DNA of 38,083 nucleotides from a virus. Lineage: Duplodnaviria; Caudoviricetes. Below the pieces are notes generated by a model, which saw nothing but the letters and a program-made list of their open reading frames with translations, did not search any database and was not told the DNA's origin. Position numbers and translations under genes: made by a program. The stretch is from positions 1 to 38,083 of IMG/VR virus record IMGVR_UViG_3300020044_003239; one strand, given 5' to 3'. Shown in pieces: positions 1 to 37,401 of the stretch (position 1 is its first letter; each line of letters starts with the position of its first letter).

Positions 1-216
1 CATGGTGGGAAAGAGTGGGTGAAGACCGAATCAGCGAGTATCTATCAGACACCTGCTTGGCGCATTATTCGGGACAGACAATTATCACTACAGCCCCTGT
101 GTCAAGCCTGTCTGTTAGACGGACACGTTGAAATAGGCAATCACGTTGACCACGTGTTCCCTTGGAAACAGATAGGTAATAGGGCATTCCTTAACAACGT
201 GTTTCAGACCTTATGT
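1..216 (+). CDS. Terminase-associated HNH endonuclease (HK97 gp74-like), internal fragment; open at window start, truncated at inversion junction ~216
   Basis: Frame 1 is open from base 1: HGGKEW..IYQTPAWRIIRDRQLSLQPLCQAC...HVDHVFPW...NNVFQTLC. The expected CxxCH..K tail is replaced by the antisense of the neighbouring region. Confidence 0.8.
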
Positions 217-237
217 ATCTTGTGTATCTTCTGTAGG

Positions 238-1014
238 TCAATCCCAATAGGTATTGAATGCTTTGAGAGGGTAGAACACTAGACTGTTGCGATAGCCTCC
301 CTTTTGGGTAGGCAATATGGGGGTTACTCCATGGACATTGCGCCAAGCCGGGTATACAAGCATGGAGTTATCTCTACTGTCCACTGTAGCGCCGTAGTCT
401 GGAACAGTCGTGTTACCGCCCCTTGCATTCTGTTTTTTGGCGATGATGACGTTGACACAGCCCTCAAGATTGCCGGCATCCCGGTGGAATGGTGCGCTAA
501 TGTTGAAGTTGCTAATGCTCGATGTGAATAATTCCCCAAACCGCCATTGCGGTGGTACTTTTGTCTCAATGATAGATTTTTGTCGTTCATAAATGCTTGG
601 TGTAATCTCTTTGATGAGTTGCTCTGATTCCCTACAGGCAAGCATCATCGCTTTGATAAATGTCGAGGCTGATTTCACTGAGTGAACGCTAGACATTGTT
701 GGGTAAGGTCGCCTCATGTGAGGCTTTGGAGGGCAAGAACCGATTATGGTACTGTATTGCTCCACTTCGTTCTCAGCGTTTGTTAGGCCGCTTGACCGCC
801 TCATTACGCTTTTGGGGACTCGGTCCGAAAGCAATTCAGCGTTAGCAACGTCAATAAATTGCGCTAATTTGCCCGTGATTTGTTTGATGTAAAAGCCTAC
901 AGGCTCACCATCGGCATAAAACACGCAATCCTCTGTTACGTTTGGCTCAATATCACCGCAAGTGTCGCCAATCTTCACGTTATGAGGGATTTGTACAAGT
1001 TCAACACGTTTCAT
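238..1014 (-). CDS. TET/JBP-family 2OG-Fe(II) dioxygenase (5-methylpyrimidine oxidase)
   Basis: HxD (FHRDAGN), distal His (NVHGVTPI) and RxS (GYRNSLVFY) in the TET/JBP arrangement, preceded by FTSSISNFN. Confidence 0.88.
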   Translation of the reverse strand: MKRVELVQIPHNVKIGDTCGDIEPNVTEDCVFYADGEPVGFYIKQITGKLAQFIDVANAELLSDRVPKSVMRRSSGLTNAENEVEQYSTIIGSCPPKPHMRRPYPTMSSVHSVKSASTFIKAMMLACRESEQLIKEITPSIYERQKSIIETKVPPQWRFGELFTSSISNFNISAPFHRDAGNLEGCVNVIIAKKQNARGGNTTVPDYGATVDSRDNSMLVYPAWRNVHGVTPILPTQKGGYRNSLVFYPLKAFNTYWD

Positions 1015-1892
1015 TTCTTTTCCTTCAGAAATTTTGGGTGATAGTTTTTATTCCGAAACTGATATAAAACAGACCAATCCACGCCTCTTGGCACGTTTTT
1101 TTCCATTGTCTCAATTTCCTTACGCATACGCTCAATGTAAAAGCCTACATAGCGTTTGCCAAGCTTTACCTTTTTGTAAGCGCAAAGGGTTGTTTCGATG
1201 TTGAAAATGTCTTGATGCCTGATAGGTTCGTATTGAACGGCCTCAAGGATTCGGAGAAACCCTTTTTCAAGGTCTGCGTAGTTTTCGTTTGTTAGCGCCT
1301 TGTCATTGAAATGCGTGAATATGTCTTGTCGGCCTAATGCTAAAGCCAACCCGTTGCGACAACTTTCAGCATTGCGTAAGTCTAGCGTGTGCGGTGTCAT
1401 CTTCGTGTTAGTAAGCACTGACACCATCTCAAGGTAAATAAACATAGTGAACCTACCGAAATAATGTAGGCTGTCTAAGGCTTTCAGGCTGTTCTTGTAG
1501 GTTTCTACCGATGAGGCGTGTTGTAGACGTTTAAAAAAAGCCTCTTGGTTGTTACCTACAATAGCTTTGTAGGATTTGAAGCAATTTACAAACTCATTAT
1601 TGCTTCGCACCCGCGCCCGGTCTGTTTGAAACACTAGCTTTTCCCTGTTAGCGGTCCACCAACGCTGTAATCGGCCTACATCGACTGTTTGATAGTCGGG
1701 AAATTCATTGTAAATGTAAAAGACTGTAGGGGCGCAGTAACACGTACCAAACAAAAAAGCTAACCAATATCTTTGCTCAGTGTTGAGTTCGTATCTGTCG
1801 CTTATGTAGGACAAACAATCATTTTGAGGGTCAATATCATTTGCGGCAGACGATTCCCGGTGAAACCTCAAGTATTCAGTTATGTTGTCCAT
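1011..1892 (-). CDS. aGPT-Pplase2 / amino acid:DNA transferase (HhH glycosylase-like fold)
   Basis: Motifs RYWLAFLFG, FQTDR, YFGRFTMFIYLE, IETTLCAYKK and RYVGFYIER; ATGA-coupled to the dioxygenase. Confidence 0.82.
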   Translation of the reverse strand: MDNITEYLRFHRESSAANDIDPQNDCLSYISDRYELNTEQRYWLAFLFGTCYCAPTVFYIYNEFPDYQTVDVGRLQRWWTANREKLVFQTDRARVRSNNEFVNCFKSYKAIVGNNQEAFFKRLQHASSVETYKNSLKALDSLHYFGRFTMFIYLEMVSVLTNTKMTPHTLDLRNAESCRNGLALALGRQDIFTHFNDKALTNENYADLEKGFLRILEAVQYEPIRHQDIFNIETTLCAYKKVKLGKRYVGFYIERMRKEIETMEKNVPRGVDWSVLYQFRNKNYHPKFLKEKK

Positions 1893-2479
1893 TCGTACAC
1901 CTCATGCGCGTTCAAAGGTTCGGGTTCAAGCAAACACCTACGCAAAATGTCGGCAGTAGAAGCAATGTAGGTTGCGCCGTGCCGGGTTGCCCTGTACCCT
2001 GGCCTACCCTCATTGCGAAAAAACGCAAGGGCATGCGATTTGAGTGTCAGGCCACTGAACGTAATCCCGGACTTCAGCATGCCAAGCCGGTTTTCGGACT
2101 GAAGCATGATTTCCCCGTCATTGTCGGATTCCATTTTGATTTTGTAAGCCGCTTCCATTTCGGCCTTAGTTCGCATATCAATCACGCCATTGAACACTAA
2201 ATATTCATCGCCAAAACGTAATGGCTGATTGTTCATCATGTGTTTGTAGTCGCCGCTTGTGCTGTAGCGGCAGTGACCTATAAGCCTAGTAGGGCTGTCT
2301 ATCGTTGTGAGCAAAGACTTTAGGCCGTTAGATTTGTGTTCCATGAGCCGCCCATCCTGAATAGCGGCGTATCCATAGGCGTGCATCCCGCGAATCTTTG
2401 ACTCAATGAAAACTCGCTTGAGTGTTTCTACAGCAATCGCAGTAGGGTTATCACTAATAAAACCTATGATGGCGCACAT
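1880..2479 (-). CDS. Stand-alone class II (Ntn) glutamine amidotransferase domain protein
   Basis: N-terminal M-C-A-I-I-G nucleophile Cys, RG.HAYG, GHCRYSTSG, NNQP, FNGVI, SDNDGE. Confidence 0.88.
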   Translation of the reverse strand: MCAIIGFISDNPTAIAVETLKRVFIESKIRGMHAYGYAAIQDGRLMEHKSNGLKSLLTTIDSPTRLIGHCRYSTSGDYKHMMNNQPLRFGDEYLVFNGVIDMRTKAEMEAAYKIKMESDNDGEIMLQSENRLGMLKSGITFSGLTLKSHALAFFRNEGRPGYRATRHGATYIASTADILRRCLLEPEPLNAHEVYEWTT

Positions 2480-2922
2480 ATTTGCCTCAAGTCTTTAAAC
2501 ACTTCTTCTGTAGGTCGGTTGTTGTTCACTATGTGAAGCCCAAAAGGGTAAACTTTTTTCCATCCCGGTAATTTTTTAATGAAACTGTAGTGCGCTTTGA
2601 ATTTGTCTAGGTTGTAAGAGGCCGCGCCACGCTTCAATGTTCTTTGTTTGACTGTTTCCGGGAGACTGTGCATCACGATTATTTCCAAGCTTGTTAGCCG
2701 GGATAAGCGCATCAATGTAGGTTCGGTTTGAAAGATACAGCCGTGTATGACCATATCGGTTTTGCTTGCTTTCACTAAGCTTACAAGTTCATTCACGCTA
2801 CCAATAGCGTCTAAACCGGCTTTCCCGCCAATGTAGTTGTAATGAGGAAATTGTTTTTCAAGCAGATTTGCTTGGGTCGTTTTTCCGCATCCGTGATAGC
2901 CGACCAGATAAAAACACTTCAC
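2464..2922 (-). CDS. P-loop nucleotide/DNA kinase-like protein
   Basis: Walker A GYHGCGKTT after a hydrophobic strand and an RxxxR-like lid (KQRTLKRG); GTG start at 2922 overlaps the ParB stop (GTGA). Confidence 0.75.
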   Translation of the reverse strand: MKCFYLVGYHGCGKTTQANLLEKQFPHYNYIGGKAGLDAIGSVNELVSLVKASKTDMVIHGCIFQTEPTLMRLSRLTSLEIIVMHSLPETVKQRTLKRGAASYNLDKFKAHYSFIKKLPGWKKVYPFGLHIVNNNRPTEEVFKDLRQICAPS

Positions 2923-3521
2923 AGCTTGTCTTTTTCGGCCTTCAGGTAGGTGAGAAGCATATACCCGACATAGCCGCCCTGTTCGCGCCAAAACTTGACC
3001 AGTTCCTGTGCTTCTTCATAGTGGTCAGGCTCAAACTCGATTTGAATGGCTTTACGAACACCCTTTGCCATATCGTCAAGTTGGTCATCAATTTCCTCAT
3101 CGTCTAACACGGAGTAATCAACGCTTGCTGATTTGAGTTCAGACGGGTCAAACGCTAACAAATCAATGTTGAACCCGGCATCTCGGAGGTCTTGAATCTC
3201 TAGTTCAAGCATCTGCTCATCCCAACCACTGTTCAACGCAATTTTGTTATCAGCAATGACATAAGCCCGTTTCTGAGCCTCTGTTAGGTGTGAAAGGTCG
3301 ATTGTAGGGACTTCACGCATACTCATCTTGAGTGCGGCCTGATAGCGCCCGTGACCGGCAATGATGCCGTTTTCACCATCGAGCAATATAGGGGATGTAA
3401 ACCCGAATTCTTTGATGCTTGAGGCTATTTGCCCCACTTGTAATTCGCTGTGTGTACGCGAATTTCTAGCATAAGGAATCAGGTCAGTTGTTTGTTTGTA
3501 AACAATCTTCAGTTTTGTCAT
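2919..3521 (-). CDS. ParB/Srx-like N-terminal domain protein (no methylase domain attached)
   Basis: LIPYARNSRTHS..QIASSIKEFGFTSPIL..IIAGHGR..A..IADNKIALNSGWD; acidic linker and short C-terminal domain. Confidence 0.88.
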   Translation of the reverse strand: MTKLKIVYKQTTDLIPYARNSRTHSELQVGQIASSIKEFGFTSPILLDGENGIIAGHGRYQAALKMSMREVPTIDLSHLTEAQKRAYVIADNKIALNSGWDEQMLELEIQDLRDAGFNIDLLAFDPSELKSASVDYSVLDDEEIDDQLDDMAKGVRKAIQIEFEPDHYEEAQELVKFWREQGGYVGYMLLTYLKAEKDKL

Positions 3522-3535
3522 ATCTTGTCCTGTGG

Positions 3536-3937
3536 TTATTTTAGGAATCTTATTTTGTAAATAGTCGAATCAATCAGTTGTGCGATTTCATCAGTGATAT
3601 TTTGCAGTTCTGAATCTTCAGGAAAACCATCAGCAACTCGCAATGTTTCCACTTCTTTGCTTAAATATCTCATGTATTCCAAAGCTGATTTTGGCAATTC
3701 ATAGTCTGTAGTGAATTTGGTCAACAAACCATATTTCCCTTGAAAAGCCTCTATAAAATCATCAACAAGGTCGCCGATTTCTGTGTAATACGTTTCAAGC
3801 GCCTTATGTTCGGAATAGCTTGTCGTTGTCAGGTGCAATATGTGCCCGTTAGTGACGCTATGCAACAAACACATGGTGAATTGCATTACGGGGTCATTGG
3901 GCTGAACCGCCTCTACCCTAGCTGTGAATTTGACCAT
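3536..3937 (-). CDS. Ferritin/Dps-like four-helix protein (DUF5856-like)
   Basis: HILHL...SYSEHKALETYY..I.DLVD.FIEAFQGKYG...ELQNITDEI...IYKIRFL. Confidence 0.7.
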   Translation of the reverse strand: MVKFTARVEAVQPNDPVMQFTMCLLHSVTNGHILHLTTTSYSEHKALETYYTEIGDLVDDFIEAFQGKYGLLTKFTTDYELPKSALEYMRYLSKEVETLRVADGFPEDSELQNITDEIAQLIDSTIYKIRFLK

Positions 3938-3954
3938 GTAGCCTCCCTTTGAAG

Positions 3955-4212
3955 TTACATTGTAAGCCTACGGATTGTTTCGTTCAAGACTGATAACTCA
4001 TTTTTTTTCAACACGTTCCAAATACTTCTGCGCCCGTGTATGCCGTTGTGTGAACCTTGATGGCAATCCTTACACAAAGGAATACACAGGTATTGCATAT
4101 GTTGTTCAACGTGATGAGCGTCTGATGGCCCGGCTTGACCGCATACCCCACAGGGCATATCTTTGACTCTTGCTAGGTGTAGACGTTCTGTAGATGTTAG
4201 TTTGTTGTTCAT
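3955..4212 (-). CDS. Small Zn-binding HNH nuclease (Ref/DUF968-like)
   Basis: PCGVCG..SDAHH..IPLCKDCHQG..GIH. Confidence 0.7.
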   Translation of the reverse strand: MNNKLTSTERLHLARVKDMPCGVCGQAGPSDAHHVEQHMQYLCIPLCKDCHQGSHNGIHGRRSIWNVLKKNELSVLNETIRRLTM

Positions 4213-4667
4213 TCTATTTCGACAACCAAATTGCCGTTTGATTTGATGTAATCTCTTGTTTTCTTAACATAGCGTTCAAATTCAGCCCGGCTGATGCTTG
4301 CCTGTTGTAAATCAGCATACTCTAACAATTCCCTGACAGCCTGAATGCCAAGGCCATCAAACCCCATTCTCATTGTGGACTGATAGCGCATAGCCGCTTT
4401 GTGTAGGGCATCTTGGGCTTTCTCACATACGGGTAGGACTTCCGGCCCAATTCCGTTTTTTGCCATCATTTCTGACAAGTTAAGCACATCTACAAGTGTT
4501 CGCCAATCACCAACTGTTCCCATTCCCCTAGTGATAGCGTCTAATGCCGCGTATTCAGTGAACCGCAGTTTGTCTAACGTCTGTCTTGGGGTAATAGCCG
4601 CCCCAATGATTCCGTGTTGTATTGGGTCTATCAGCGCCCAAAACTTTCTTTTTGTGTATTTTCTCAT
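4209..4667 (-). CDS. Hypothetical phage protein
   Basis: 152 aa ORF with ATGA overlaps at both ends. Confidence 0.75.
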   Translation of the reverse strand: MRKYTKRKFWALIDPIQHGIIGAAITPRQTLDKLRFTEYAALDAITRGMGTVGDWRTLVDVLNLSEMMAKNGIGPEVLPVCEKAQDALHKAAMRYQSTMRMGFDGLGIQAVRELLEYADLQQASISRAEFERYVKKTRDYIKSNGNLVVEIE

Positions 4668-4996
4668 TCGTGCGACCTTACAAGCATCCTTTCAGTGGCT
4701 TGCCGGGTGCGCCATATCTCAATGTCAAGCCGTGCGGCCTCGATTTTCCATTTGAGTGTTTCTTCTTCCTCAATGGCGCAAGCCAAACCCTCTAGCAATT
4801 CTCTGTACTCAGGATTGGCATAGGCTTCACGTTCCTGTGCATTAGCGGCCTCGATGCCTTTACGCAAAGCATCTTTCATCAGCAAAGCTTTTTTTGACTT
4901 CCGAAATTCGTCAAGGTATGTTCTGCGGCCTTTGGCATTGCCATAAGCCCCGGCATTGTCCCGGATGAATTGCGCCCGTTCTTCAACATCTTTCAT
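4664..4996 (-). CDS. Hypothetical helical phage protein
   Basis: 110 aa coiled-coil-like ORF (QEREAYANPEY..IEIWRT), coupled to its neighbours. Confidence 0.75.
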   Translation of the reverse strand: MKDVEERAQFIRDNAGAYGNAKGRRTYLDEFRKSKKALLMKDALRKGIEAANAQEREAYANPEYRELLEGLACAIEEEETLKWKIEAARLDIEIWRTRQATERMLVRSHE

Positions 4997-5282
4997 TTTT
5001 TATCTCCAATGCGTCTATTGCGTCATGTACGCTTGTTACTAAAAAAACTACACCCTTCCACGATGTATGCCAAACAATTTGGTCTTCGGTCAATTTGCGC
5101 TCAGATGGCGGCTTACGTCCGTCTTTTATTTCCATGAGGATATTTTTTCCTCGATAGCCTACCAGTAGGTCAGGACAGCCTTGCCCAACAGCAGACAGTA
5201 ATTGAACTGTAGCGCCGACAGCCCTTAGTGCTGACACGATTTGTGTTTGGTTTGCATCAATTCTTGCGGCGTATCGCATCAT
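4983..5282 (-). CDS. VRR-NUC / PD-(D/E)XK nuclease (putative Holliday junction resolvase)
   Basis: DANQ..IV.ALR..G, GCPDLLVG, MEIKDG, KLTEDQ. Confidence 0.82.
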   Translation of the reverse strand: MMRYAARIDANQTQIVSALRAVGATVQLLSAVGQGCPDLLVGYRGKNILMEIKDGRKPPSERKLTEDQIVWHTSWKGVVFLVTSVHDAIDALEIKNERC

Positions 5283-5469
5283 TTTCCTTTTGTATGTTCA
5301 TTCTGCGTTTCAAATCGTCTGCAATGATTTGTCCCCTTTTTTTTGCTATTTCGCTGATAGTTATGTTCCACCATTCAATAGCCTCTCCACGACCTTCCTC
5401 AAGGTGTTTTTTTCTGTATCTTGAAATCCACTCGCGGGCTTCACAGTCCCTAAAATGTTCCATATCCAT
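5257..5469 (-). CDS. Hypothetical protein
   Basis: ORF (EHFRDCEAREWI...IAKKRG) overlapping neighbours in the operon. Confidence 0.65.
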   Translation of the reverse strand: MDMEHFRDCEAREWISRYRKKHLEEGRGEAIEWWNITISEIAKKRGQIIADDLKRRMNIQKENDAIRRKN

Positions 5470-5572
5470 CAAGGTCGCCTGTCATTTCTAACGCTTTTGT
5501 AATAATTGACTCAGGGTAAGGTATACCCTCACGCACCCTGTCAAGGATTTTCATCGCCATTTCGTATGTCAT
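5450..5572 (-). CDS. Small hypothetical protein (40 aa, MTYEMAMKILDRVREG...TGDLDGYGTF)
   Basis: Below the ORF-track cutoff; fills the operon gap with an ATGA overlap. Confidence 0.6.
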   Translation of the reverse strand: MTYEMAMKILDRVREGIPYPESIITKALEMTGDLDGYGTF

Positions 5573-5736
5573 TCTTTTAGCATTCCTGAGATGTAGGGCC
5601 ATTCGTGTTTAACAAAATGTTGATGATTGGCCCAAGCCAATAAAAAATACCAACAGGACCTTGAACTGCTTATAAAACCGGCATCATAAATTTCTGCCAT
5701 TTTTAAACACGTTTTTTTGGATGGTGCTTTATTCAT
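5569..5736 (-). CDS. Small hypothetical protein (55 aa, MNKAPSKKTCLKMAEIY...)
   Basis: ATGA overlaps with the replication gene stop and the next start. Confidence 0.55.
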   Translation of the reverse strand: MNKAPSKKTCLKMAEIYDAGFISSSRSCWYFLLAWANHQHFVKHEWPYISGMLKE

Positions 5737-13202: not shown

Positions 13203-14285
13203 TTTCTACCTTGTCAAAGGTTTGTATATCAGGTTTCATAAATTGCAGATTGTTCCGCAATCGTTGGTCTTCAGGGTCTAATTCTATGGCTTTTGTAACA
13301 GAGCATAAGCTTCGTCTTTTAAGCCCAAGTGCCATGCAGATATGCTACCTAAGTCCCAAGGTCTAGCACCCCACACTTCGGGGTCCATTGTGTAAACCAA
13401 AGCTTTATCTTTGACTTCTAAACAAGATTTGGCGGCTGAATAGCACTCTACCCACAAGCCTCTGCGATAGCAAAACATCGCCAATTCACACCAAGGCTCA
13501 CGGGTGTTAGGGGCTTCTGCAATAGCCAAACGAAACCATTTGTGGGCTTCATTAGACAACCCGATTTCATCGTGTGCTTTGCCTAACAGTCGCATTGCAT
13601 AGCATCTTTCGTTTTGCCAAGTCGCTTCAGGCATTGCTAGGTAATTGTTCAAAGCAACAATGGCCTCTTGCCACCGCGCATAGAAAGTCAATTCACGGGC
13701 ACGATAAAAAGCATTACGGGGACAATGCGGGTCTTCTTTGACAGCTAAGTCAAGCAATGGCATATATTGACCACGGGACTTTGTGTTGTCAGGGTGATGG
13801 CTGACTAACAACATATCCGTGTGGGCGTAGACTTCATTTGTTCTGCCATCAGGTCTAGGATATTCGTGAACTGGATGATGCCAGTGATAGCCGGTCCGGT
13901 GATGAATCTTCTCATAGAAAAAACTGATGCCGCAACCCCAATCAAATTTGTATCGCAGACGGGTCGTGTTTTCTTGCCAAACGCGCTCAATTTCCTCACG
14001 CCAGTGCGGTTCTAGCACTTCGTCTAGGTCAAGGGATATGCAAACATCGAAATCACCAGGAATCAGGTTTAAAGCAGTATCGCGGGCTTTATCAAAACGC
14101 CAAGGCTTAACGCAGATGTTATGCACAACAGCGCCGCAATCTAAGGCAATATCAACAGTTTTGTCAGTTGAACCGGTGTCAGCAATAACAATGAGGTCAG
14201 CATCATCTGCTGATTCACAGAATCGTTTTACAAATTCTTCCTCATTTTTACTGATTGCGTAAACTGCTATCTTGAGTTTTTTCAT
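13177..14285 (-). CDS. GT2 (GT-A) glycosyltransferase with C-terminal TPR repeats; 1-bp deletion at ~13291-13294 truncates the last TPR
   Basis: AVYAISKNEE, DTGSTD.T, FDKARD, DxD (LDLDE), VHE; TPR helices; adding one A restores ...QKAIELDPEDQRLRNNLQFM. Confidence 0.88.
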
Positions 14286-14301
14286 GTCTTGTAATGTTGT
14301 T

Positions 14302-14544
14302 TTATGTTGTAGGTTTTGTGAAGCTGTAAGTGTTATCTGCATTTTTTGTGGCAATGTCACCACAGCTAACCATTACATCATCCGCTACATCAACATAGAT
14401 AATTTTATTAAATGGAAATTTCTCATCAAATCCACCCGTTTCCGGATTGTAATTTGGATGTGTTTCATCAAACAAAATTACGGCTTGCACCAGTAATGGA
14501 TTTGTTTCTTTAAATTCTATTGAATGAATGTGTAGGTGTTTCAT
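14302..14544 (-). CDS. Hypothetical protein
   Basis: 80 aa ORF with ATGA overlap. Confidence 0.6.
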   Translation of the reverse strand: MKHLHIHSIEFKETNPLLVQAVILFDETHPNYNPETGGFDEKFPFNKIIYVDVADDVMVSCGDIATKNADNTYSFTKPTT

Positions 14545-14778: not shown

Positions 14779-17151
14779 TTAACTAATTTGAACTATAGAA
14801 GCCGTTGCGACACCAACATAGATATTAGCACTTGGCGTAAACGCTTTGCCAATTTGACCTACAGCAGGGGCGGGCTGTGCGGCGCTTGCCACAATAGCCG
14901 TGCCTGAACCAGAATACGCCAAACCCATACCCGACGTAGCCATATATGTTGTATCGTTTATTTGCGTTGAATTGTAGGCTTTACTAGTCCAAGTAATCAA
15001 ATCAGTGGATGAATACATAGTTGCGCTTGTGTCCATCAAATAATAAACAGAATTTGCATATATCAATCTGTTAACAGACGGATTTGTTGCAGAAACAGGA
15101 TTTGTTTTTGGTGTAAACGCATTCACAACTCCTGTTGCAGAAGTAGTAAGTGCAGTTGAACTTAGAAACACATTTTGAGAATTTAAGTAATAAATACTTT
15201 CAATTCCGCTTGGCATTGTTATCCAACTTAGTCCATCTGTACTTGTAAGAATTAACCCTTGAGAGTTTGATGCTACAAATCTACCATTTCCATATTGAAT
15301 GCAAGTATTTCCATAACCTGCTTGCATTGTAGGAAAACTGCTTGCTCCAACATTACCTTGCGTCCAAGATGTTCCTTGGTTTGTTGATGTTGCATAAACA
15401 CCATTTTGCCATAAGATGACAATAGTGCTTGTTGCTAAATCACCGCTTCTAGCAAAACCCGCAACTGCTACACCACCAAACAAGTTCCAGTTAATTCCAG
15501 TAGGGTTTGAAACATAAGAAGGATTACCTATGTACCCACTCCAACTGGCGCTGTAAGATGTAGAAACAAAAACCCAACCTCCCTCAGTACCGCCGTAATA
15601 TTTATTGCTTGCGGGAAAAACTCCAACTGCTGTGCCGTAACTAAAGCCTTGTCCGGAATTGTAAAAACCGGCACTTCGCTGTCCATCAGTACCATTACTT
15701 GGACTTGATCCATAATAAAACGGCGTAGAATACGTTCCACCATCTTGGTAATACGCACAGGCTCTCCAAGAACCATCATTAGGATTTCCCGCAAACATCA
15801 ACATTCCTTGCCAAGAACCATTTGTAATTACAGTTGAAGAAAAACTAAAATTTTCTGTGCTAAAAACCCCGCTTGTGCTGACATTACATCCTTGAACATA
15901 ATTGTTACCACCGGCGTATTGATAAATTAAAATTTTATCGTTGTAAGAAGCATTGGTTGTATTTCTATAGGCGGGAACAAACATTTTTGTTCCTGTATTT
16001 GAATATCCAGTCAAAAATGTTGGCGTAGTTTCAGCCCATGATGTTCCATTACTAGAATACAAATATCTGCCGTTGTTTGGAGATTGAGTTGTATATTGTT
16101 GAATGTAATAACCGCCATTTGCCGCATAAAATGGTTGCGCTGAATAATTGTTTAAATTATTAGCTACAGTATTTTGATAAGACCAACTAGAACCATCTGT
16201 TGATGTGGTTAAAAACGTATTAGAAAAATCATAAGGGGCTCTACTATTTGTGTATAAAATTTTATTGTCAGAAACACCAAGACCAGTTCCCGTTGGTTGA
16301 TTAGTTCCGGCGACTAGCGCAACATAAGGTTGCGTAAAATTTGTAAAATCTGCTGTGTAGTATGAAATGCCACTTGTTCCATAAAAATAATTAGTTCCAA
16401 TGTAAGCAATTTCGTAAATTGTATCTGCTGATTTAAATACAGTTGCCGCAGTCCATGTTACTGGAGTCGTAGTTGCGTAATAACTACGACCACTTGCACC
16501 ACCGGCTACAAATTTATCATTACCAAAAGTTATTGTGTAACAGGCAAAAAATGAAGGCAATGTGGTTTGTGTCCAAGTAACCAAATCTGTGCTGTAATGA
16601 ATTGTGGCGCTTGTTCTATTACAAACAACATAATATCCATTGCCAAATGTTACATTTGTGACAGTTACTGCAAACGGAAATGTTCTTCTTGTATATGTTA
16701 ATCCGTCAGAACTTGTCAAAATTAAACCATTGCCTGATGTATCAACGCCAACAGCAATATAGTTTCCATTTAAATATGCAATATTGGCAATTTTATACGA
16801 ACTATTATTAACAGCATTTTCTGTTTTGTATGCGCTTGTTCCAGTAGTAGAAATTGAAATTGAATCCCCTGCGCCAAGCGTAATTGGTGATTGCAATAGG
16901 TTAATAGTTTTTACACCATTCACTAAATAGTAGGTACTTGATTGAGTTATGTACCCTGTCGTTTGATCTTTGACAAGTGGATAAGTGATACCGCTAGATA
17001 CTTTATTTAAAGTGACAGTATCAAAAGTAGTGGTTAATGATTGCGCAAGCACACCTTTAACAATTGCAGTTTGACCCGCCGGTACTGTATAGATTGATGT
17101 GGGCGTTGTTGAGTTATATAACGCCGTCGCAGAGATTGGAGTTTGTGCCAT
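14779..17151 (-). CDS. Putative receptor-binding / fibre-tip protein with BNR/Asp-box beta-propeller repeats
   Basis: Repeated S.DG.(T/S)W motifs (SSDGLTY, STDLVTW, STDGSSW, SSNGTSW, STDGLSW, STDLITW); S/T/G/N-rich. Confidence 0.75.
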   Translation of the reverse strand: MAQTPISATALYNSTTPTSIYTVPAGQTAIVKGVLAQSLTTTFDTVTLNKVSSGITYPLVKDQTTGYITQSSTYYLVNGVKTINLLQSPITLGAGDSISISTTGTSAYKTENAVNNSSYKIANIAYLNGNYIAVGVDTSGNGLILTSSDGLTYTRRTFPFAVTVTNVTFGNGYYVVCNRTSATIHYSTDLVTWTQTTLPSFFACYTITFGNDKFVAGGASGRSYYATTTPVTWTAATVFKSADTIYEIAYIGTNYFYGTSGISYYTADFTNFTQPYVALVAGTNQPTGTGLGVSDNKILYTNSRAPYDFSNTFLTTSTDGSSWSYQNTVANNLNNYSAQPFYAANGGYYIQQYTTQSPNNGRYLYSSNGTSWAETTPTFLTGYSNTGTKMFVPAYRNTTNASYNDKILIYQYAGGNNYVQGCNVSTSGVFSTENFSFSSTVITNGSWQGMLMFAGNPNDGSWRACAYYQDGGTYSTPFYYGSSPSNGTDGQRSAGFYNSGQGFSYGTAVGVFPASNKYYGGTEGGWVFVSTSYSASWSGYIGNPSYVSNPTGINWNLFGGVAVAGFARSGDLATSTIVILWQNGVYATSTNQGTSWTQGNVGASSFPTMQAGYGNTCIQYGNGRFVASNSQGLILTSTDGLSWITMPSGIESIYYLNSQNVFLSSTALTTSATGVVNAFTPKTNPVSATNPSVNRLIYANSVYYLMDTSATMYSSTDLITWTSKAYNSTQINDTTYMATSGMGLAYSGSGTAIVASAAQPAPAVGQIGKAFTPSANIYVGVATASIVQIS

Positions 17152-17162
17152 GATTTATCCTT

Positions 17163-19325
17163 TTAACCCATGAAATACCAAAGAAGTGAATTGTCAGCAG
17201 AAGCCGGTGCGCTTGCCACCCATGCCGCGCCGTTCCAAGTTGCAATTTGACCGGCTGTAGTGCCAACCAAAGATGTGTCCCACGCCGTGCCTGTAGATAC
17301 GGCAATGCCGGTTGCGGGATAAGTTGTAGGACCGGTTGGGCCAGTAGGTCCGGTAGAACCCGTTGGACCGGCAACTGTTGAGGCCGCTCCGGTCGGGCCT
17401 GTCACGCCTTGGATGCCCTGTGAGCCGGTCGGCCCTGTAGGTCCAACATTTCCCTGCGCTCCAGTAGACCCCGTAGGTCCTTGAATTCCTTGTATGCCTT
17501 GAATTCCCTGTACGCCTTGTGGTCCTGTTGGGCCGACTACACCTTGAATTCCCTGTGCGCCCGTAGGTCCTGTGGGTCCGACATTTCCTTGAGCGCCCGT
17601 AGACCCTGTCGGGCCTGTAGGTCCAACAACTCCCTGTATCCCCTGCGCTCCAGTAGGTCCTGTCACGCCCTGTATTCCTTGAGCGCCTGTAGGTCCTGTA
17701 GGTCCAACTACCCCTTGAATTCCTTGCGGTCCTGTTGGGCCAGTAGCGCCAACATCCCCTTGTGCGCCTTGAATTCCTTGTATACCTTGTGGGCCGGTAG
17801 GTCCGACAACGCCTTGCGCTCCAGTAGGTCCGACATTTCCTTGAATGCCTTGGCTTCCTGTAGGGCCGACTGCTCCAGTAGGTCCAACAACACCTTGTAT
17901 GCCTTGTGTTCCCTGTGGTCCTGTAGGGCCGACATCGCCTTGGATGCCTTGAATTCCCTGTATTCCTTGATTTCCTTGCGGGCCAGTAGGTCCGACATTG
18001 CCCTGTGTCCCGGTAGGTCCGGTTGCGCCTGTCTGTCCTGTAGGGCCAGTAGGACCGGCTACTGTGGAATTAGCGCCAGTAGGACCAGTTGGACCTTGAA
18101 CACCTTGTGCGCCATCTAAGTTAACTGTCCAATCGGCGTATGTTCCTGAACCCGTGTGATTTTTAACATCAACAACTAACACACCAGTGCCGTTGTTGTA
18201 TGTCAAAACAGCGCCGTGCATGTGACTAACAGTATCGCCATTCCAACTAATAATGACGTTTTGTGCTTCGCTGTAGGCTAATCCTGTTGCCACAGTTAGC
18301 GTTTGCGTACCATTACCAAATGTTAACGATGTTGTGCTTGTTGTTAAATAGCGGTCGCCATTAGCACCCGCAGAACCGGTTGGTCCTGTAGGACCGGTAA
18401 TGGTATTTCCCTGTATTCCGGTAGGTCCAGTAACGCCTTGTGCGCCTGTAGTTCCTGTAGGGCCTGTTGGTCCAACAACGCCTTGAATTCCTTGACTTCC
18501 TGTTGGGCCAACATCACCCTGTATTCCTTGTACGCCTTGAATTCCTTGTGTTCCTTGAGCGCCAGTAGGGCCTGTAGGCCCTGCTACTGTAGATGGCGTG
18601 CCAGTAGCACCCGTTGGTCCTGTAGCGCCAACAGAACCCGCACTTCCAGTAGGACCGGCTACGCCTTGAATGCCTTGGTCGCCTTGAATGCCCTGTGGTC
18701 CGGTAGGTCCGTGATCGCCTACATTACCCTGTGTTCCTGTTGGCCCGGTAGCGCCAATGTTTCCCTGAATGCCTTGCGCCCCGGTAGGTCCTGTAGGGCC
18801 GGCAACAGTTGAAGCCGCGCCAGTAGAGCCTGTTGGCCCTGTTGGTCCGTTACCGCCTTGTGCGCCAGTGGGACCGGCAACAGTAGAAGCCGCGCCTGTA
18901 GGCCCTGTTGGGCCAAGGTTTCCTTGAATGCCTTGAATGCCTTGTACGCCTTGAGCGCCCGTAGGCCCTGCAATCCCGTTAGCGCCTGTTGGACCAGTTG
19001 CGCCCGCATTTCCCTGTGGGCCTGTAGGCCCGGCGACTGTAGATGCTGAACCAGTTGCACCCGTTGGACCTTGTGAACCAGTTGGACCGGCTACTGTAGA
19101 TGCCGCGCCGGTAGGCCCGGTAGGTCCGGCAGAACCCGAAGCCCCGGTAGGTCCGGTTGTTCCCGCGCCGGTTGCGCCGGTAGGTCCAGTTGCGCCTACT
19201 CCCGTTGGCCCGGTCGGACCAGTTGGACCGCTACCTTGAGGTCCGGTTGGCCCTGTAGCGCCCGAAACACCTCGGTCTACAACAACAGTGACATTACTAG
19301 CGGGTTGAACTTTGATAGCTGTCAT
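17163..19325 (-). CDS. Collagen-like (Gly-X-Y) fibre protein
   Basis: Two long Gly-X-Y tracts (GPT, GAT, GIQ) interrupted by a globular insert at ~18115-18360. Confidence 0.92.
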
Positions 19326-23948: not shown

Positions 23949-24395
23949 TTATTCCTTCACGAAGCTTGCGCCTACTGCTTTATATCCACGCCGTGTGTAA
24001 TCAATAAACGGCCCATTAGCCGAAATTGAAGTGCTTACAACATCTACATTGCCCAAATCTAACATTTTCTGAGCATGGGAATCAAACGCTTTCCATAGTC
24101 TGCCGCCAATTGTTCCATTCCTGTATTCGGGTTCTACCCACCACAGAAGTTCGTGTAGTTCACGGACCTTTGGCGACCATATATTGTTTTGTTTTATAGC
24201 AATGATTGCGCCACGCATATGATTGTCTATGTAGACAAACCCTTTGCCCTGAATGATGCTGAACAATAATTCTTCCACGTGACGGGGAAAATGGTTGCAA
24301 GGCTCACCAAGTATTTTTATTGGGTTCTCATAGGCGTAAGCTTCCACAATTTCTAACAATCTCGGGATGTCGTATCTTGTTGCTTGTCTTATCAT
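23949..24395 (-). CDS. GNAT-fold acetyltransferase-like protein in the tail-tip operon
   Basis: MIRQAT..DIP; WWVEPEYRNGTIGGRL (motif A-like); Y.RRGY. Confidence 0.75.
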   Translation of the reverse strand: MIRQATRYDIPRLLEIVEAYAYENPIKILGEPCNHFPRHVEELLFSIIQGKGFVYIDNHMRGAIIAIKQNNIWSPKVRELHELLWWVEPEYRNGTIGGRLWKAFDSHAQKMLDLGNVDVVSTSISANGPFIDYTRRGYKAVGASFVKE

Positions 24396-31148: not shown

Positions 31149-31820
31149 TTACATCACCAAGGGTTTGTATGGACGCAAAAGGGTTGCCACGCCAAAAGGA
31201 ATTTCTCGCAAGATTCCCTCTGTAGTGTTTGAACGATTGTTATACAAATGTGTAAGCAACAACAGGCCCGCTTGTTTGATAACAGGGTAAGCCGATAACG
31301 GGTTAGCAACAGTCGTGTAGGTAATCGTAATCGGGGCAGTCATGCTCGAATTGATTTCTGTTGGCAGACTGTTGATAATTACTTTGTTGCCTGAATTGTC
31401 ATAGTAATAATTTGATGAGGCAATGGTCGTGAACACGGGCGGGAAATTGTCATTCCAATACCCGACCGATTCAATTGAAACCGGTAATTGGTCGGGGTAA
31501 AAGTTTTGACTCACTTCCGGCATGTCTAAACACACCGGAGAGGCCGCGAGGGACTCTGTCCCATACCAAACCCTATACGTCACCGAAAAAATGCTTAAAC
31601 CAAGGAAATCTTCAATTGCTTGCCGGGTGGCAATTTCGAGGCTTTGCAAATAGCTGTCCTGACTTTCGTCATTGAACAAATTAAGTTGCTGTGTGATTTC
31701 GTCTAGCGTGAGCCAAGGTGTGCTACTGTCCCGGTTGATTTGCTCAACCTTGACGTAGTTGAAAGGGTTGCGGGTCTGCGCCCCAAAAGGCGCACCCTGT
31801 TGGTATTCGGTGGCGCTCAT
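31149..31820 (-). CDS. Head-tail connector (HK97 gp6-like)
   Basis: LTLDEI.QQL..D..QDSYL..L..A..AIE.FLG; P.IKQAGLLL.THLYNNR..IPFGV..LLRPYK. Confidence 0.85.
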   Translation of the reverse strand: MSATEYQQGAPFGAQTRNPFNYVKVEQINRDSSTPWLTLDEITQQLNLFNDESQDSYLQSLEIATRQAIEDFLGLSIFSVTYRVWYGTESLAASPVCLDMPEVSQNFYPDQLPVSIESVGYWNDNFPPVFTTIASSNYYYDNSGNKVIINSLPTEINSSMTAPITITYTTVANPLSAYPVIKQAGLLLLTHLYNNRSNTTEGILREIPFGVATLLRPYKPLVM

Positions 31821-32848
31821 TAGACACCAACTAAACGAATGCCGGCAAACGGGTCGCGCACTGTACTGACTAAACGCTTCTCAGCATACAAATTTATAAA
31901 TCCGGGTTGTGTTTGTTCCATTGCTTGAATTGTCATTTCTTCAATATCAGCAACAGTAACAAATCGAGGCCAATTTGCCAAATAAATATTGAAATTACCC
32001 GCGCCTGTTACAGACATGTTAGGATTGGCAATGACCGGGAAACCAAAAATGTTGACAACAGAACCGCCATCATCATCACCAGTTTCAGCAAATTGTTTGA
32101 TTGCTGTTGCGCCACCTAAATTACGCAATTCATGAATTGTTTGTGGGTGCATCATCCACGCAGTACCGGGCAAATTCCAATACTGAGCAGGGAACAATCG
32201 AACAATATCAGTTATGTCAGAATATGTGACTGCCGCCGCCGCTTGCGTGTATGTAGCAATGCTGTGGCGACCATTTGTGATTGCCGTGCCGCTAGAGCCG
32301 TATGCAGATGCACTTGCACTAGGATAGCTGTTAAGTCCACGGAGGCCGTTTGTACCACCAGTAGAAGTTGTTGTAGAACCGGCTTGGTCGTTGTTCAAGA
32401 CCATTGAAGCGCCTTCAATTTGACCAAATTCAAACATCAAATCTTGAACAATTGTTTCGTTCAAATAATTTACATCTGACATAACTGCTGTACGAATTGG
32501 CAACTGTGCTGAAATTACACGTGTTGGTAGTTGCCAAATTGTTGTGTTGATGTCTGGTGAACCGCTATTAGGGTTAACTGTGTAAAGCCAAGGATTTGTA
32601 CTGTTAGCCGCATTACCGGTTTTAGCTACAAACTGAACGCTTGAACCTGACGCTCCAATAACACGTGATAAATCACGAATTGGATTTGTAAAACGTAATG
32701 CCGCAAATGCGTCATCAAAATATGTGCGACCACCTACACCATCACCTGAACCAGTAAGCGCAGAGGCTTCACGCAAATCGACTTTTACAGGTGCGCCAGT
32801 TTGTATGGTTTCTTGAATCGCTGATAGGATTTTTTTGGTGACAGTCAT
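31820..32848 (-). CDS. Second HK97-fold capsid protein (paralog lacking the long delta domain)
   Basis: Colinear similarity to the upstream MCP (EASALT..GDG.GGRT, KTGNA, GG.NGLRGL, EKRL..VRDP); AAAGGA RBS. Confidence 0.82.
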   Translation of the reverse strand: MTVTKKILSAIQETIQTGAPVKVDLREASALTGSGDGVGGRTYFDDAFAALRFTNPIRDLSRVIGASGSSVQFVAKTGNAANSTNPWLYTVNPNSGSPDINTTIWQLPTRVISAQLPIRTAVMSDVNYLNETIVQDLMFEFGQIEGASMVLNNDQAGSTTTSTGGTNGLRGLNSYPSASASAYGSSGTAITNGRHSIATYTQAAAAVTYSDITDIVRLFPAQYWNLPGTAWMMHPQTIHELRNLGGATAIKQFAETGDDDGGSVVNIFGFPVIANPNMSVTGAGNFNIYLANWPRFVTVADIEEMTIQAMEQTQPGFINLYAEKRLVSTVRDPFAGIRLVGV

Positions 32849-32863
32849 GGTGATTCCTTTGAG

Positions 32864-32891
32864 AAAAAGGGCAGAGGCCGAAGCCCCTGCC
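32864..32891 (-). terminator. Rho-independent terminator between the two capsid genes
   Basis: GGCAGGGGC-TTCG-GCCTCTGCC followed by CTTTTT. Confidence 0.8.
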
Positions 32892-32910
32892 AATGGCAAC
32901 TACATGGAGA

Positions 32911-36576: not shown

Positions 36577-36980
36577 TCAAAAGGACCTGAACCCAAAACC
36601 ACTAACCATCGCGTTGTCTAGTGAGCAGTGCATCGCAATAATTAGACTGATAATACCATCAACCTTTGCCGATTTGTCAGCTTCGTTCTTACGAATCTTG
36701 ATGTTTCCGTTCACATCCTCATACAATTCGCAGTTTCCAAGTTGCCAACCTAAAAATGGGTTGCCATCGTGTTTTATCTGATACTGCATTATCAGTTTCT
36801 CCACGTGCTTGGACGGGTTGCTCAACACCGACATACCTTGCCCAACACGCTTCACTGGCATCCCTGAATCGTTCAATCGCGCCACAAGACTTGATGCGTT
36901 GTAAGCATCATAGCCAACCTCTTTAATGTCGTAAATAGCGGCCTGTTGTAATATGTAGTCGCTGATCTCCCTATCGTCCA
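36577..36980 (-). CDS. terL: Terminase large subunit, C-terminal nuclease fragment (5' part cut at inversion junction)
   Basis: IKEVGYDAYNA, VGQGM..LS.P.K..E, HDGNP.L.W, KVDGIIS. Confidence 0.88.
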
Positions 36981-37401
36981 CGGGACAAAGGCGGCTCACA
37001 ACGCTACACCACTACCTGAGAAGGTCCGGCAACGCATCCCGAAAGCCACTTGGCTTGATGACCCGGACAGTTGGGATAGAAACACGTTCATTGCGGAGAC
37101 TGCGGATTTCCTGTGGGATACCTACGGCATCGGCTCAGACCAAGACAAACACATCTTGGCGGCGCTTGCTACACAAATCGACATTTATGTGAAGTGTTGG
37201 AAAGGTGTTCAAAAAGGCGGGGTGATTACACAGTTCAACAACGGGCAGACTGTAGGGCCAAATCCGTTCCTAACAGCCGGTGATAAAGCCTTGGCACGGG
37301 CAATCGTGCTTATGAATGAACTTGGCTTGACCCCAAGAGGCCGCTTGGCGACTAACAAACAGGAAGGCGGCAAGTATTCCCGCTTGTTGAACGGCCCATG
37401 A
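36973..37401 (+). CDS. terS: Terminase small subunit (P27 family), 5' end cut at the junction
   Basis: Open frame IVHGTKAAH...GVI..FNNG....NP...ELGLTPRGR; ATGA-coupled to terL. Confidence 0.82.
   Translation: MVHGTKAAHNATPLPEKVRQRIPKATWLDDPDSWDRNTFIAETADFLWDTYGIGSDQDKHILAALATQIDIYVKCWKGVQKGGVITQFNNGQTVGPNPFLTAGDKALARAIVLMNELGLTPRGRLATNKQEGGKYSRLLNGP

What the first reader, a model, noticed from the sequence alone, without database searches (positions are those of the whole stretch)
238..3521. Five-gene DNA base-hypermodification cassette (ParB, P-loop kinase, GATase-II, amino acid:DNA transferase, TET/JBP) in a small siphovirus
Seen: five minus-strand genes whose stops and starts all overlap, each with recognisable catalytic motifs. 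Established: TET/JBP enzymes hydroxylate the 5-methyl group of 5mC or T in DNA, and aGPT-Pplase2 enzymes transfer amino acids or amines onto phosphorylated 5-hmU in large phages such as ViI and M6. Inference: this is a self-contained route (methyl oxidation, phosphorylation, then amine or amino-acid substitution, with the GATase supplying or trimming the amine) that may yield an undescribed base. The individual families and similar neighbourhoods have been predicted computationally, but I know of no biochemical characterisation of this exact combination.
Basis: partly seen in the sequence, partly recalled or inferred. Interest (0 to 1): 0.92.

Follow-up and report, generated by a model that had tools for sequence, protein, structure and literature searches.

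The report
Glutamine-fed phage thymine amination cassette
This small uncultured phage carries five intact, overlapping genes that likely oxidise thymine in its finished DNA, phosphorylate it, and swap the phosphate for ammonia passed from a glutamine-splitting partner, which would give the known base 5-aminomethyluracil by an untested short route; the gene cluster type itself is already published.

Summary
Confirmed: five overlapping minus-strand genes (ParB, P-loop kinase, class II GATase, AADT/ADDT, TET/JBP), all under purifying selection, beside the packaging genes. The cluster type is in print (Lee 2021; O'Toole 2026, who showed ParB-activated T-to-5hmU oxidation in related enzymes). My searches found no paper giving the GATase's role or the final base.

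Four lines point to glutamine-derived ammonia giving 5-aminomethyl-dU (5-NmdU):
(1) AADT and GATase always travel together and fold as a dimer (0.90 vs best control 0.00) through the GATase's ammonia-exit face.
(2) The AADT keeps its catalytic residues but lacks both glycine-carboxylate lysines.
(3) In relatives, GATase+AADT swaps, in one slot, with glycine-AADT+FAD oxidase, the proven 5-NmdU route.
(4) 48 of 88 distinct relatives add a homologue of PaMx11 gp48, the 5-NmdU acetyltransferase.

Against: the nearest characterised AADT transfers serine and also lacks those lysines; the window's TET and kinase are divergent, untested subtypes. The likely novelty is the route, not the base. This scan noted the same idea on other DNA before. 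New variant of a known kind; interest 0.55.

The parts
2919..3521 (-). ParB-like protein (N-terminal nucleotide-binding domain, acidic linker, short C-terminal domain); likely activator of the T-dioxygenase
   Evidence: PHROG 620 E 9e-53; Pfam ParB_N 22.1 bits, under cut-off; 29% over 104 aa to the L240 ParB that matches ParB176 by eye; dN/dS 0.03-0.04
2464..2922 (-). P-loop kinase, 152 aa, GTG start; likely 5-hmU DNA kinase of a divergent subtype (Walker-B Glu replaced by His)
   Evidence: AF2 pLDDT 89.9; Foldseek best hits UMP/CMP and adenylate kinases, E 3e-7; profile link to the other cassette kinase subtype 88%; pooled profile 97% to M6 gp54/PaMx11 gp49/Tonitrus gp7, own subtype only over the P-loop; dN/dS 0.04-0.11
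1880..2479 (-). Stand-alone class II (Ntn) glutamine amidotransferase; predicted ammonia-supplying subunit of the AADT
   Evidence: Pfam GATase_6 over cut-off; C2, R30, R71, T74, N97-G98, D121 invariant in 35 of 35; profile hits PurF and asparagine synthetase glutaminase domains; complex with AADT 0.90 vs best control 0.00
1011..1892 (-). AADT / aGPT-Pplase2 DNA transferase with catalytic D21, E233, T234, C237 but without the glycine-carboxylate lysines (I152, A238)
   Evidence: Pfam ADDT 68.2 bits; AF2 pLDDT 94.5, Foldseek top three hits PaMx11 gp46, TM 0.6, E 2e-3 to 7e-3; those residues invariant in 80 of 80 homologues
238..1014 (-). TET/JBP Fe(II)/2-oxoglutarate dioxygenase of a short subtype (no C-terminal extension); likely T-to-5hmU
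   Evidence: Pfam Tet_JBP over cut-off; H177, D179, H228, R242 invariant in 26 of 26; 54% to Prochlorococcus phage MED4-184/P-HS2/MED4-117; 26% over 190 aa to the 5mYOX176-matching L240 TET
3536..3937 (-). DUF5856 gene just upstream; accessory, moves with the cassette in some relatives, role unknown
   Evidence: Pfam DUF5856 76.8 bits; PHROG 858; in 16 of 80 loci, upstream of ParB in 13 and downstream of TET in 3
1..216 (+). Inverted fragment of the HNH endonuclease gene that follows TET in relatives and precedes the terminase genes (likely assembly inversion)
   Evidence: Pfam HNH; blastn to L001/L003 shows the opposite orientation

Best explanation
The cassette likely modifies thymine in finished phage DNA in three steps: a ParB-assisted dioxygenase would make 5-hydroxymethyluracil, the kinase would phosphorylate it, and a predicted GATase-AADT dimer would replace the phosphate with ammonia released from glutamine, leaving 5-aminomethyluracil (5-NmdU). 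Shown here: the five genes, their intact catalytic residues, purifying selection, constant GATase-AADT linkage, loss of the glycine pocket, and module exchange with the glycine/FAD route in relatives. Shown in papers for homologues only: ParB-dependent T oxidation, 5-hmU kinases, AADT chemistry through a cysteine-bound exocyclic methylene, and acetylation of 5-NmdU by PaMx11 gp48. Inferred: the dimer, ammonia channelling, the product, and activity of this TET and kinase subtype. This genome has no gp48-like acetyltransferase, so the free amine would be its final base; relatives with the acetyltransferase would make 5-acetamidomethyl-dU. The purpose is probably protection from host nucleases at a subset of T sites; the position beside the terminase suggests late timing, not an essential packaging role.
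For: Linkage: GATase found in 79 of 80 AADT-anchored loci, the 80th holding its cut 3' end. AADT found in 77 of 80 GATase-anchored loci, the other three ending at the contig edge. The pair persists across five or more gene orders, two TET clades and two kinase subtypes.

Complex: score 0.90, best of 3 controls 0.00; the mark was reached by 116 of 157 solved complexes and 2 of 215 mismatched pairs (counts hold only roughly with my alignments); runs agree in 100% of contacts; partner pLDDT at least 92. The GATase side includes residues 28-33 and 72-74. R30 aligns with PurF Arg26; Y72 sits at the GlmS Trp74 position (numbering recalled). Those residues couple the two sites and gate the ammonia channel (PMC7000685).

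Pocket: PaMx11 K150/K248/Y257/D262 read I/A/R/Y in the window, invariant in 80 of 80. These positions set glycine selectivity (PMC13458397).

Module swap: L074 and L240 are 90% identical over ParB-TET and 96% over the kinase, but differ in between. L074 has GATase-GNAT-AADT; L240 has a 241-aa AADT with all ten glycine-pocket/catalytic residues plus a gp47-like FAD protein. Of 54 TET-anchored loci, 35 have the GATase module, 13 the glycine-AADT+FAD module, 3 glycine-AADT alone, 3 other genes, and none both.

Acetyltransferase: the optional GNAT profile matches PaMx11 gp48 over its length (34.8 bits). Its tblastn hits only 18 of 50,697 phage records, 15 of them Pseudomonas phages including PaMx11 gp48 itself. 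gp48 acts on 5-NmdU and not on glycinyl-T (PMC8989533).

Absences: no C5-methyltransferase, thymidylate synthase family gene, DAO-family FAD enzyme, PALP-family PLP enzyme or gp48-like GNAT in the genome.
Against: No activity was measured. The nearest characterised AADT is ViI gp247 (29%, E 8e-18), a serine O-transferase that also lacks both lysines and shares the window's R247, so the pocket only excludes the glycine mode.

The window's TET is 20-29% identical to the tested clade-C1 type and lacks the C-terminal extension that 5mYOX176 needs. None of six short motifs (five from the window TET) occurs in the paper's construct list, and several ParB-associated enzymes in that paper were inactive.

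The kinase misses the Pfam HMUDK and Ploopntkinase3 families and has His for the Walker-B Glu; the proven PaMx11 gp49 also scores under the HMUDK cut-off. The FAD assignment in the swap loci rests on phmmer to gp47 (E 4e-8 to 5e-5) and motifs; Pfam DAO hit none of the 4 tested. Loci are redundant (88 AADTs = 59 clusters at 95%, 8 at 70%), so counts are not independent events. Swapped modules need not make the same product. I could not see model coordinates, so no tunnel was measured.
Confidence: 0.68

Rival explanations
1. The AADT transfers an amino acid or small peptide (serine by its hydroxyl as in ViI, or glutamine, glutamate or a gamma-glutamyl thiol), and the docked Ntn enzyme trims the adduct hydrolytically, giving an undescribed base.
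For: Closest characterised AADT is the serine transferase ViI gp247, sharing the basic residues after the catalytic Cys. Weak NCBIfam hit of the GATase to EgtC, a gamma-glutamyl hydrolase (E 0.029). AADT donor range is broad (PMC13458397). A free alpha-amine could also be acetylated.
Against: PurF and GlmS glutaminase domains score far better (E 5e-8 to 8e-7). The full glutamine site is invariant. Docking uses the ammonia-exit face. The module swaps with a 5-NmdU-making module, and the GNAT is of the gp48 type. No PALP-family decarboxylase, which ViI needs, is in the genome.
Confidence: 0.15
2. In this lineage the pathway does not run as drawn: the short TET or the His-substituted kinase has another specificity or needs another partner, so the DNA carries only 5hmU or a different intermediate.
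For: The TET subtype is untested and lacks the extension required in 5mYOX176; the kinase lacks the Walker-B Glu; many ParB-associated dioxygenases were weak or inactive in E. coli.
Against: All five genes have dN/dS 0.02-0.12. The short TET also occurs with the ordinary kinase subtype and the gp48-like GNAT (L170, L173, L178, L227, L229, L231, L232). Elsewhere it sits with glycosyltransferase or FkbM methyltransferase genes that would need a hydroxyl acceptor.
Confidence: 0.1
3. The cassette acts on 5-methylcytosine made by the host, giving an aminomethyl-cytosine at methylated motifs.
For: 5mYOX176 oxidised 5mC and T comparably in vitro (PMC13229309).
Against: No C5-methyltransferase in the genome. 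AADTs are shown only on 5-PmdU, with metal bound to thymine O4 (PMC11472151). The same AADT-GATase clade sits beside a TET 95% identical to the 5mYOX176-matching protein.
Confidence: 0.04

Closest known systems
ParB-dependent phage T-dioxygenase clusters (5mYOX clade C1, e.g. 5mYOX176/ParB176; O'Toole et al. PNAS 2026, PMC13229309)
   Same: ParB without an obvious DNA-binding domain, TET/JBP, GATase, P-loop kinase and AADT beside terminase genes, no C5-methyltransferase; the paper names this gene association.
   Different: The window's TET is a short subtype (26% over 190 aa, no C-terminal extension), its kinase is divergent and the gene order differs. The paper stops at 5hmU and gives no role for the GATase and no final base. 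Contigs with the 5mYOX176 sequence itself carry the glycine/FAD module, not the GATase.
Pseudomonas phage PaMx11 5-NmdU/5-AcNmdU pathway (gp46 AADT, gp47 FAD lyase, gp48 GNAT, gp49 kinase; Lee et al. NAR 2021, PMC8989533; structures PMC11472151)
   Same: AADT fold and catalytic residues, kinase-activated 5-hmU, predicted product 5-NmdU, gp48-like GNAT in relatives.
   Different: PaMx11 incorporates 5-hmU during replication, adds glycine, then cleaves it with an FAD enzyme. Here 5-hmU would be made on DNA by TET and the nitrogen would come as ammonia in one step; no FAD enzyme, glycine pocket or GNAT in the window.
Salmonella phage ViI gp247 serine:DNA transferase (5-NeOmdU pathway)
   Same: Nearest characterised AADT by sequence (29%); also lacks the glycine lysines.
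   Different: 411 aa, needs a PLP decarboxylase, no GATase in the 17-kb region read; pocket differs at window positions 21, 148, 152, 238 and 252.
Rhodococcus phage Tonitrus thymine-hypermodification genes (PMC11955845)
   Same: ParB, TET/JBP, AADT and P-loop kinase near the terminase in a small cultured phage.
   Different: No GATase; its AADT keeps Trp146/Lys150 but not Lys248; an extra Rossmann-like gene follows the kinase. Untested.
Class II glutamine amidotransferases (PurF, GlmS, AsnB); phage 9g Gat-QueC (recalled, seen only in a search listing)
   Same: Ntn glutaminase with N-terminal Cys feeding ammonia to a synthase through the R-loop/Q-loop face; Gat-QueC is a recalled precedent for glutamine nitrogen reaching a phage DNA base.
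   Different: Here the synthase would be a separate base-flipping DNA transferase and the acceptor a phosphomethyl-uracil in duplex DNA.

Membership tests
TET/JBP dioxygenase (PF12851) | Family score over cut-off; HxD...H iron triad and 2-oxoglutarate Arg | tested here: met
   36.4 vs 34.9 bits; H177, D179, H228, R242 invariant in 26 of 26
ParB-dependent T-dioxygenase (clade C1) | Neighbouring ParB and no C5-methyltransferase | tested here: met
   ParB in the same operon; PF00145 absent, control rang in 9 of 14 genomes
ParB-dependent T-dioxygenase (clade C1) | C-terminal extension and C1 sequence type | tested here: not met
   Ends 10 residues after the last conserved strand; 26% over 190 aa to the 5mYOX176-matching protein
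ParB-dependent T-dioxygenase (clade C1) | T-to-5hmU activity that needs ParB | not testable with these tools
   Needs co-expression and nucleoside analysis
AADT / aGPT-Pplase2 (PF18724) | Family score, fold, catalytic Cys and metal-binding Glu-Thr | tested here: met
   68.2 vs 26.2 bits; TM 0.6 to 8Z2N/8Z2M, though E only 2e-3; E233, T234, C237 in 80 of 80
Glycine:DNA transferase (PaMx11 gp46, M6 gp51, YuA) | Carboxylate-binding W146/K150/K248/Y257/D262 | tested here: not met
   F148, I152, A238, R247, Y252 in 80 of 80 (sequence alignment, not a structural superposition)
Serine:DNA transferase (ViI gp247) | ViI-type pocket and PLP decarboxylase partner | tested here: inconclusive
   29% identity and shared Arg, but different at five pocket positions; no PALP-family gene; I did not see ViI's serine-binding residues defined
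Class II glutamine amidotransferase | Cys at position 2, R-loop Arg, H-x-R-x-x-T, Asn-Gly oxyanion hole, Asp of the glutamine site | tested here: met
   C2, R30, H69, R71, T74, N97, G98, D121 invariant in 35 of 35; aligned to PurF
Class II glutamine amidotransferase | Synthase partner joined by an ammonia channel | tested here: inconclusive
   Predicted dimer on the right face, 0.90 vs 0.00; no coordinates available to measure a tunnel
[quoted passage not shown] | P-loop, NMP-kinase fold, lid arginines | tested here: met
   G13-K14, R94, R98 invariant in 33 of 33; fold hits
[quoted passage not shown] | Pfam HMUDK/HMUD2/Ploopntkinase3 match and Walker-B acid | tested here: not met
   No hit; His60 for Glu in 20 of 20 of its subtype; proven gp49 also under the cut-off
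PaMx11 5-AcNmdU pathway | FAD lyase, gp48 acetyltransferase and dUMP hydroxymethylase in the genome | tested here: not met
   None found in the window; gp48-like GNAT present in 48 of 88 distinct relatives

The most novel reading that the evidence does not exclude
GATase and AADT form a two-subunit glutamine:DNA amidotransferase that channels ammonia to a flipped-out phosphomethyl-uracil and writes a free primary amine on DNA in one step. It is interchangeable in nature with the glycine/FAD route and makes 5-aminomethyluracil the final base of many small uncultured phages. A bolder reading, an undescribed adduct trimmed by the Ntn enzyme, is not excluded (about 0.1-0.15).
Probability: 0.62. 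Interest if true: 0.72.

Novelty: new variant of a known kind. Interest (0 to 1): 0.55.

Why it matters
Two papers (PMC8989533, PMC13229309) list glutamine amidotransferases beside thymine-hypermodification genes without assigning a role. The evidence here turns that open point into one mass-spectrometry prediction (257 u, amide-15N labelled; 299 u with the acetyltransferase). If true, it adds ammonia to the donor range of AADT enzymes and shows two interchangeable routes to the same base. It also gives a five-gene, replication-independent way to put a primary amine on DNA, a handle for labelling. No cultured phage carrying this GATase clade was found, so synthetic expression is the route to test it.

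Tried and rejected
Sequence searches of the PDB with the AADT, single and profile, found nothing meaningful; only the fold search found PaMx11 gp46.

No close cultured carrier: GATase tblastn gave only distant hits, about 28% in the 30 rows listed of 125 records; AADT hits listed were Ackermannviridae-sized phages at 26-31% (40 rows of 377). One scan of 185,579 prokaryote genomes with the AADT alignment found none (47 pattern hits, 0 confirmed). The metagenome scan did not complete, so prevalence outside IMG/VR is untested.

The PHROG/RefSeq label 'queuine tRNA-ribosyltransferase' for the TET is rejected: Pfam and the iron triad say TET/JBP. The tail-region GNAT-like gene (23949-24395) is not the gp48 type (score -0.8 against the profile). 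The second optional GNAT (5 of 88 relatives) shows no similarity to gp48 or to the first GNAT, so it counts only as a generic acetyltransferase.

Promoter scan was at chance level (9 found, 11.6 expected). A formyl-uracil/imine route was considered and dropped: no reductase gene, and it leaves the kinase unexplained (inference). An essential packaging role is disfavoured: the nearest cultured relative by portal, Methylophilaceae phage P19250A (70%), shows no gene of cassette size in that region. My early note that 5mYOX176 sits beside the GATase was wrong; contigs with that sequence carry the FAD module. Iyer et al. 2013 is not held and may already discuss this GATase. Supplements of PMC8989533 and PMC13458397 were not read; the latter's pocket logos for other clusters may bear on the donor.
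Full report
OBSERVATION. The five ORFs are present on the minus strand and overlap by 4, 16, 13 and 4 nt. TET/JBP, ADDT and GATase_6 pass their Pfam cut-offs; ParB passes only in PHROGs; the kinase has weak family hits but models as an NMP-type P-loop kinase (pLDDT 89.9; best Foldseek E 3e-7). Nei-Gojobori dN/dS against five relatives, without indel correction, is 0.02-0.12 for every gene. The contig ends are inverted relative to L001 and L003, but the cassette is colinear with L001 at 94% over 214-5578. In relatives of this type it is followed by HNH and terminase genes or directly by terminase genes. The genome is a 38-kb long-tailed phage; its nearest cultured relative by portal is Methylophilaceae phage P19250A (70%), which shows no cassette-sized genes in that region. 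The host is not known.

CONSERVATION. An AADT query found 96 IMG/VR relatives, of which 80 were kept. Thirty share the window's order, six of them with an extra GNAT; fifty read ParB-TET-GATase-(GNAT)-AADT-kinase, some cut by contig ends. The GATase was found in 79 of 80 by clustering, the last locus holding its cut end. A GATase query (80 kept of 145) found the AADT in 77; the other three end at the contig edge. Pooling four scans gives 88 distinct complete AADTs (59 clusters at 95%, 8 at 70%), all with the GATase; part of this pool was found through the GATase or GNAT and is biased. The pair stays together while TET (short type versus clade-C1 type, 20-29% identical), kinase subtype and gene order change. 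GATase-AADT is therefore the fixed core.

FIRST STEP. O'Toole et al. (PMC13229309; I read parts 1-6 of 7 of the main text, parts 1-2 of Dataset S11 and supplement search hits) show that ParB-associated phage dioxygenases oxidise T to 5hmU, need ParB, reach about 25-35% of T at best, and are 'consistently linked' with GATases, P-loop kinases and AADTs. They give no final base. Loci L238-L240 encode proteins that match 5mYOX176 and ParB176 by eye, and L074's TET is 95% identical to them and sits beside this GATase-AADT clade. The window's own TET is a different, shorter subtype: 26% over 190 aa, no C-terminal extension, nearest cultured homologues in Prochlorococcus phages (54%). Elsewhere that subtype sits with ParB alone or with TAGT or FkbM genes. 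The genome lacks a C5-methyltransferase and a thymidylate-synthase-family gene. T oxidation is thus a good inference but untested for this subtype.

KINASE. The P-loop and lid arginines are kept, and a short motif matches M6 gp54 by eye, but the Walker-B Glu is His throughout its subtype. The pooled profile matches the reference kinases at 97%; the window's subtype alone matches only over the P-loop. It fills the same role as the other subtype in the gene set, which hits Ploopntkinase3 weakly. 5-hmU kinase activity is inferred.

AADT AND GATASE. The AADT model (pLDDT 94.5) matches PaMx11 gp46 best (TM 0.6, E 2e-3). D21, E233, T234 and C237 are invariant in 80 of 80. The glycine-binding positions defined in PMC11472151 (passages and the active-site section) and PMC13458397 (abstract and sections 33, 36, 37, 38, 48) are replaced: W146/K150/K248/Y257/D262 read F/I/A/R/Y. 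This excludes the glycine mode but not every amino acid, because ViI gp247, the nearest characterised AADT (29%), transfers serine and also lacks both lysines. The GATase keeps the whole class II glutamine site in 35 of 35. The two fold as a dimer: score 0.90, best of 3 controls 0.00; 116 of 157 solved complexes and 2 of 215 mismatched pairs reached the mark, roughly applicable since my alignments were used; runs agree in 100% of contacts; partner pLDDT at least 92. This supports binding and does not show it. My PDB searches showed no solved complex of these two families. The GATase surface includes R30 and Y72, matching Arg26 and Trp74, which couple the sites and gate the ammonia channel in GlmS (PMC7000685, passages; R30 from the PurF alignment, Y72 numbering recalled). 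By my count, 12 of 22 AADT and 12 of 24 GATase interface residues are invariant, against 94 of 293 and 40 of 199 overall; this is partly circular because the same alignments fed the model. The AADT segments at 62-74 and 269-275 are missing from the FAD-paired glycine AADTs, though ViI gp247 has similar segments.

NATURAL SWAP. L074 and L240 are 89.7% identical over ParB-TET and 95.8% over the kinase, with no match in between. L074 has GATase-GNAT-AADT there. L240 has a 241-aa ADDT (Pfam over cut-off in 5 of 5 tested) that keeps all ten PaMx11 catalytic and glycine-pocket residues in 6 of 6 aligned, followed by a gp47-like FAD protein (phmmer E 4e-8 to 5e-5 in 13 loci; Pfam DAO silent in 4 of 4). 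Among the 54 loci of that TET scan, 35 carry the GATase module, 13 glycine-AADT+FAD, 3 glycine-AADT alone and 3 other genes; none carries both, and gp47 hit no GATase locus. In PaMx11 the glycine/FAD pair makes 5-NmdU (PMC8989533; passages and section 21). The simplest reading is that the GATase module reaches the same product directly.

ACETYLTRANSFERASE. 53 of 88 distinct relatives add a GNAT: 48 of one type and 5 of another. The common type matches PaMx11 gp48 over its length, and its tblastn search of 50,697 phage records returns 18, of which 15 are Pseudomonas phages including PaMx11 gp48. gp48 acetylates 5-NmdU and not glycinyl-T. The window lacks it, as do the 13 FAD-route loci, so a free amine is a plausible end point.

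MECHANISM. T is oxidised to 5hmU (TET, ParB), phosphorylated to 5-PmdU (kinase), activated by AADT Cys237 as an exocyclic methylene as shown for M6 and ViI, and trapped by ammonia from the docked GATase to give 5-NmdU. Confidence 0.68. Rivals: an amino-acid or peptide adduct trimmed by the Ntn enzyme 0.15; a pathway that stalls or differs in this lineage 0.10; a 5mC substrate 0.04. Function is probably nuclease protection (established for other T hypermodifications; PMC6449724 seen as a listing only). O'Toole et al. note that partial, sequence-selective oxidation could equally mean a regulatory or packaging mark.

WHAT IS KNOWN. Lee et al. list 'glutaminotransferase' domains as of unknown function and TET_JBP-linked clusters. 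Burke et al. (PMC8256090, passages) and the Tonitrus report (PMC11955845, passages) describe related neighbourhoods. Searches found no paper assigning the GATase or a product to this cluster; subscription papers and Iyer 2013 were not available. Five earlier notes of this scan propose the same ammonia idea or cluster type on other genomes; my reading was set before I saw them, and they are not evidence.

VERDICT. Real, intact and of a published kind; a new variant whose likely novelty is a glutamine-dependent one-step route to a known base. Interest 0.55.

Noticed in passing
window 1-216 and about 36976-38077: Both contig ends are inverted relative to close relatives (HNH fragment; small and large terminase fragment), leaving the terminase gene in two pieces on opposite strands. 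Probably an amplification or assembly chimera.
   Followed up: partly
L238-L240, L247, L258-L260, L262, L264, L265, L273, L274, L278 (between TET and kinase): The operon matching the characterised 5mYOX176/ParB176 carries a glycine-pocket AADT and a PaMx11 gp47-like FAD protein, predicting 5-NmdU by the glycine route behind a proven T-dioxygenase; L242-L244 lack the FAD gene and would stop at glycinyl-T.
   Followed up: yes
L237:2075-3100: AADT fused in frame to what looks by eye like the N-terminal part of the gp48-like GNAT, as if the GNAT was lost by deletion.
   Followed up: no
window 3536-3937: DUF5856 gene (PHROG 'starvation-inducible transcriptional regulator'; ferritin/Dps-like by recall) flanks the cassette on either side in 16 loci; could handle iron for the dioxygenase.
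   Followed up: partly
L081:4662-6786 (Prochlorococcus phage MED4-184): A cultured cyanophage has ParB, an FkbM methyltransferase and the window-type TET before its terminase, predicting an O-methylated hydroxymethyluracil; its virion DNA could test whether this TET subtype acts on T. RefSeq labels the genes 'DNA methylase' and 'queuine tRNA-ribosyltransferase'.
   Followed up: partly
L082:3761-4642 (Rhodococcus phage Tonitrus gp8): Rossmann-like unannotated gene after the kinase; aligns by eye with FAD lyase motifs but phmmer did not link it to gp47.
   Followed up: partly
L170, L173, L178; L227:680-2152: Some cassettes carry two tandem ParB genes; one has a 490-aa ParB fusion with an unassigned extension.
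   Followed up: no
L127:5072-5317 and L130:5403-5858: Small inserts without Pfam hits between AADT and TET in two close relatives.
   Followed up: no
window 13284-14363: Family-2 glycosyltransferase near the tail-fibre genes, 10 kb from the cassette; not examined as a DNA modifier.
   Followed up: no
window 14779-17151 and 17163-19325: A low-GC 790-aa gene with no Pfam, PHROG or NCBIfam hit lies beside a collagen-like repeat fibre gene; and the genome has two major-capsid-like genes in tandem (31820-34266).
   Followed up: no
L281:4962-6778: A C1-type TET followed by a radical SAM/SPASM gene and a TET-associated glycosyltransferase, another downstream module.
   Followed up: no
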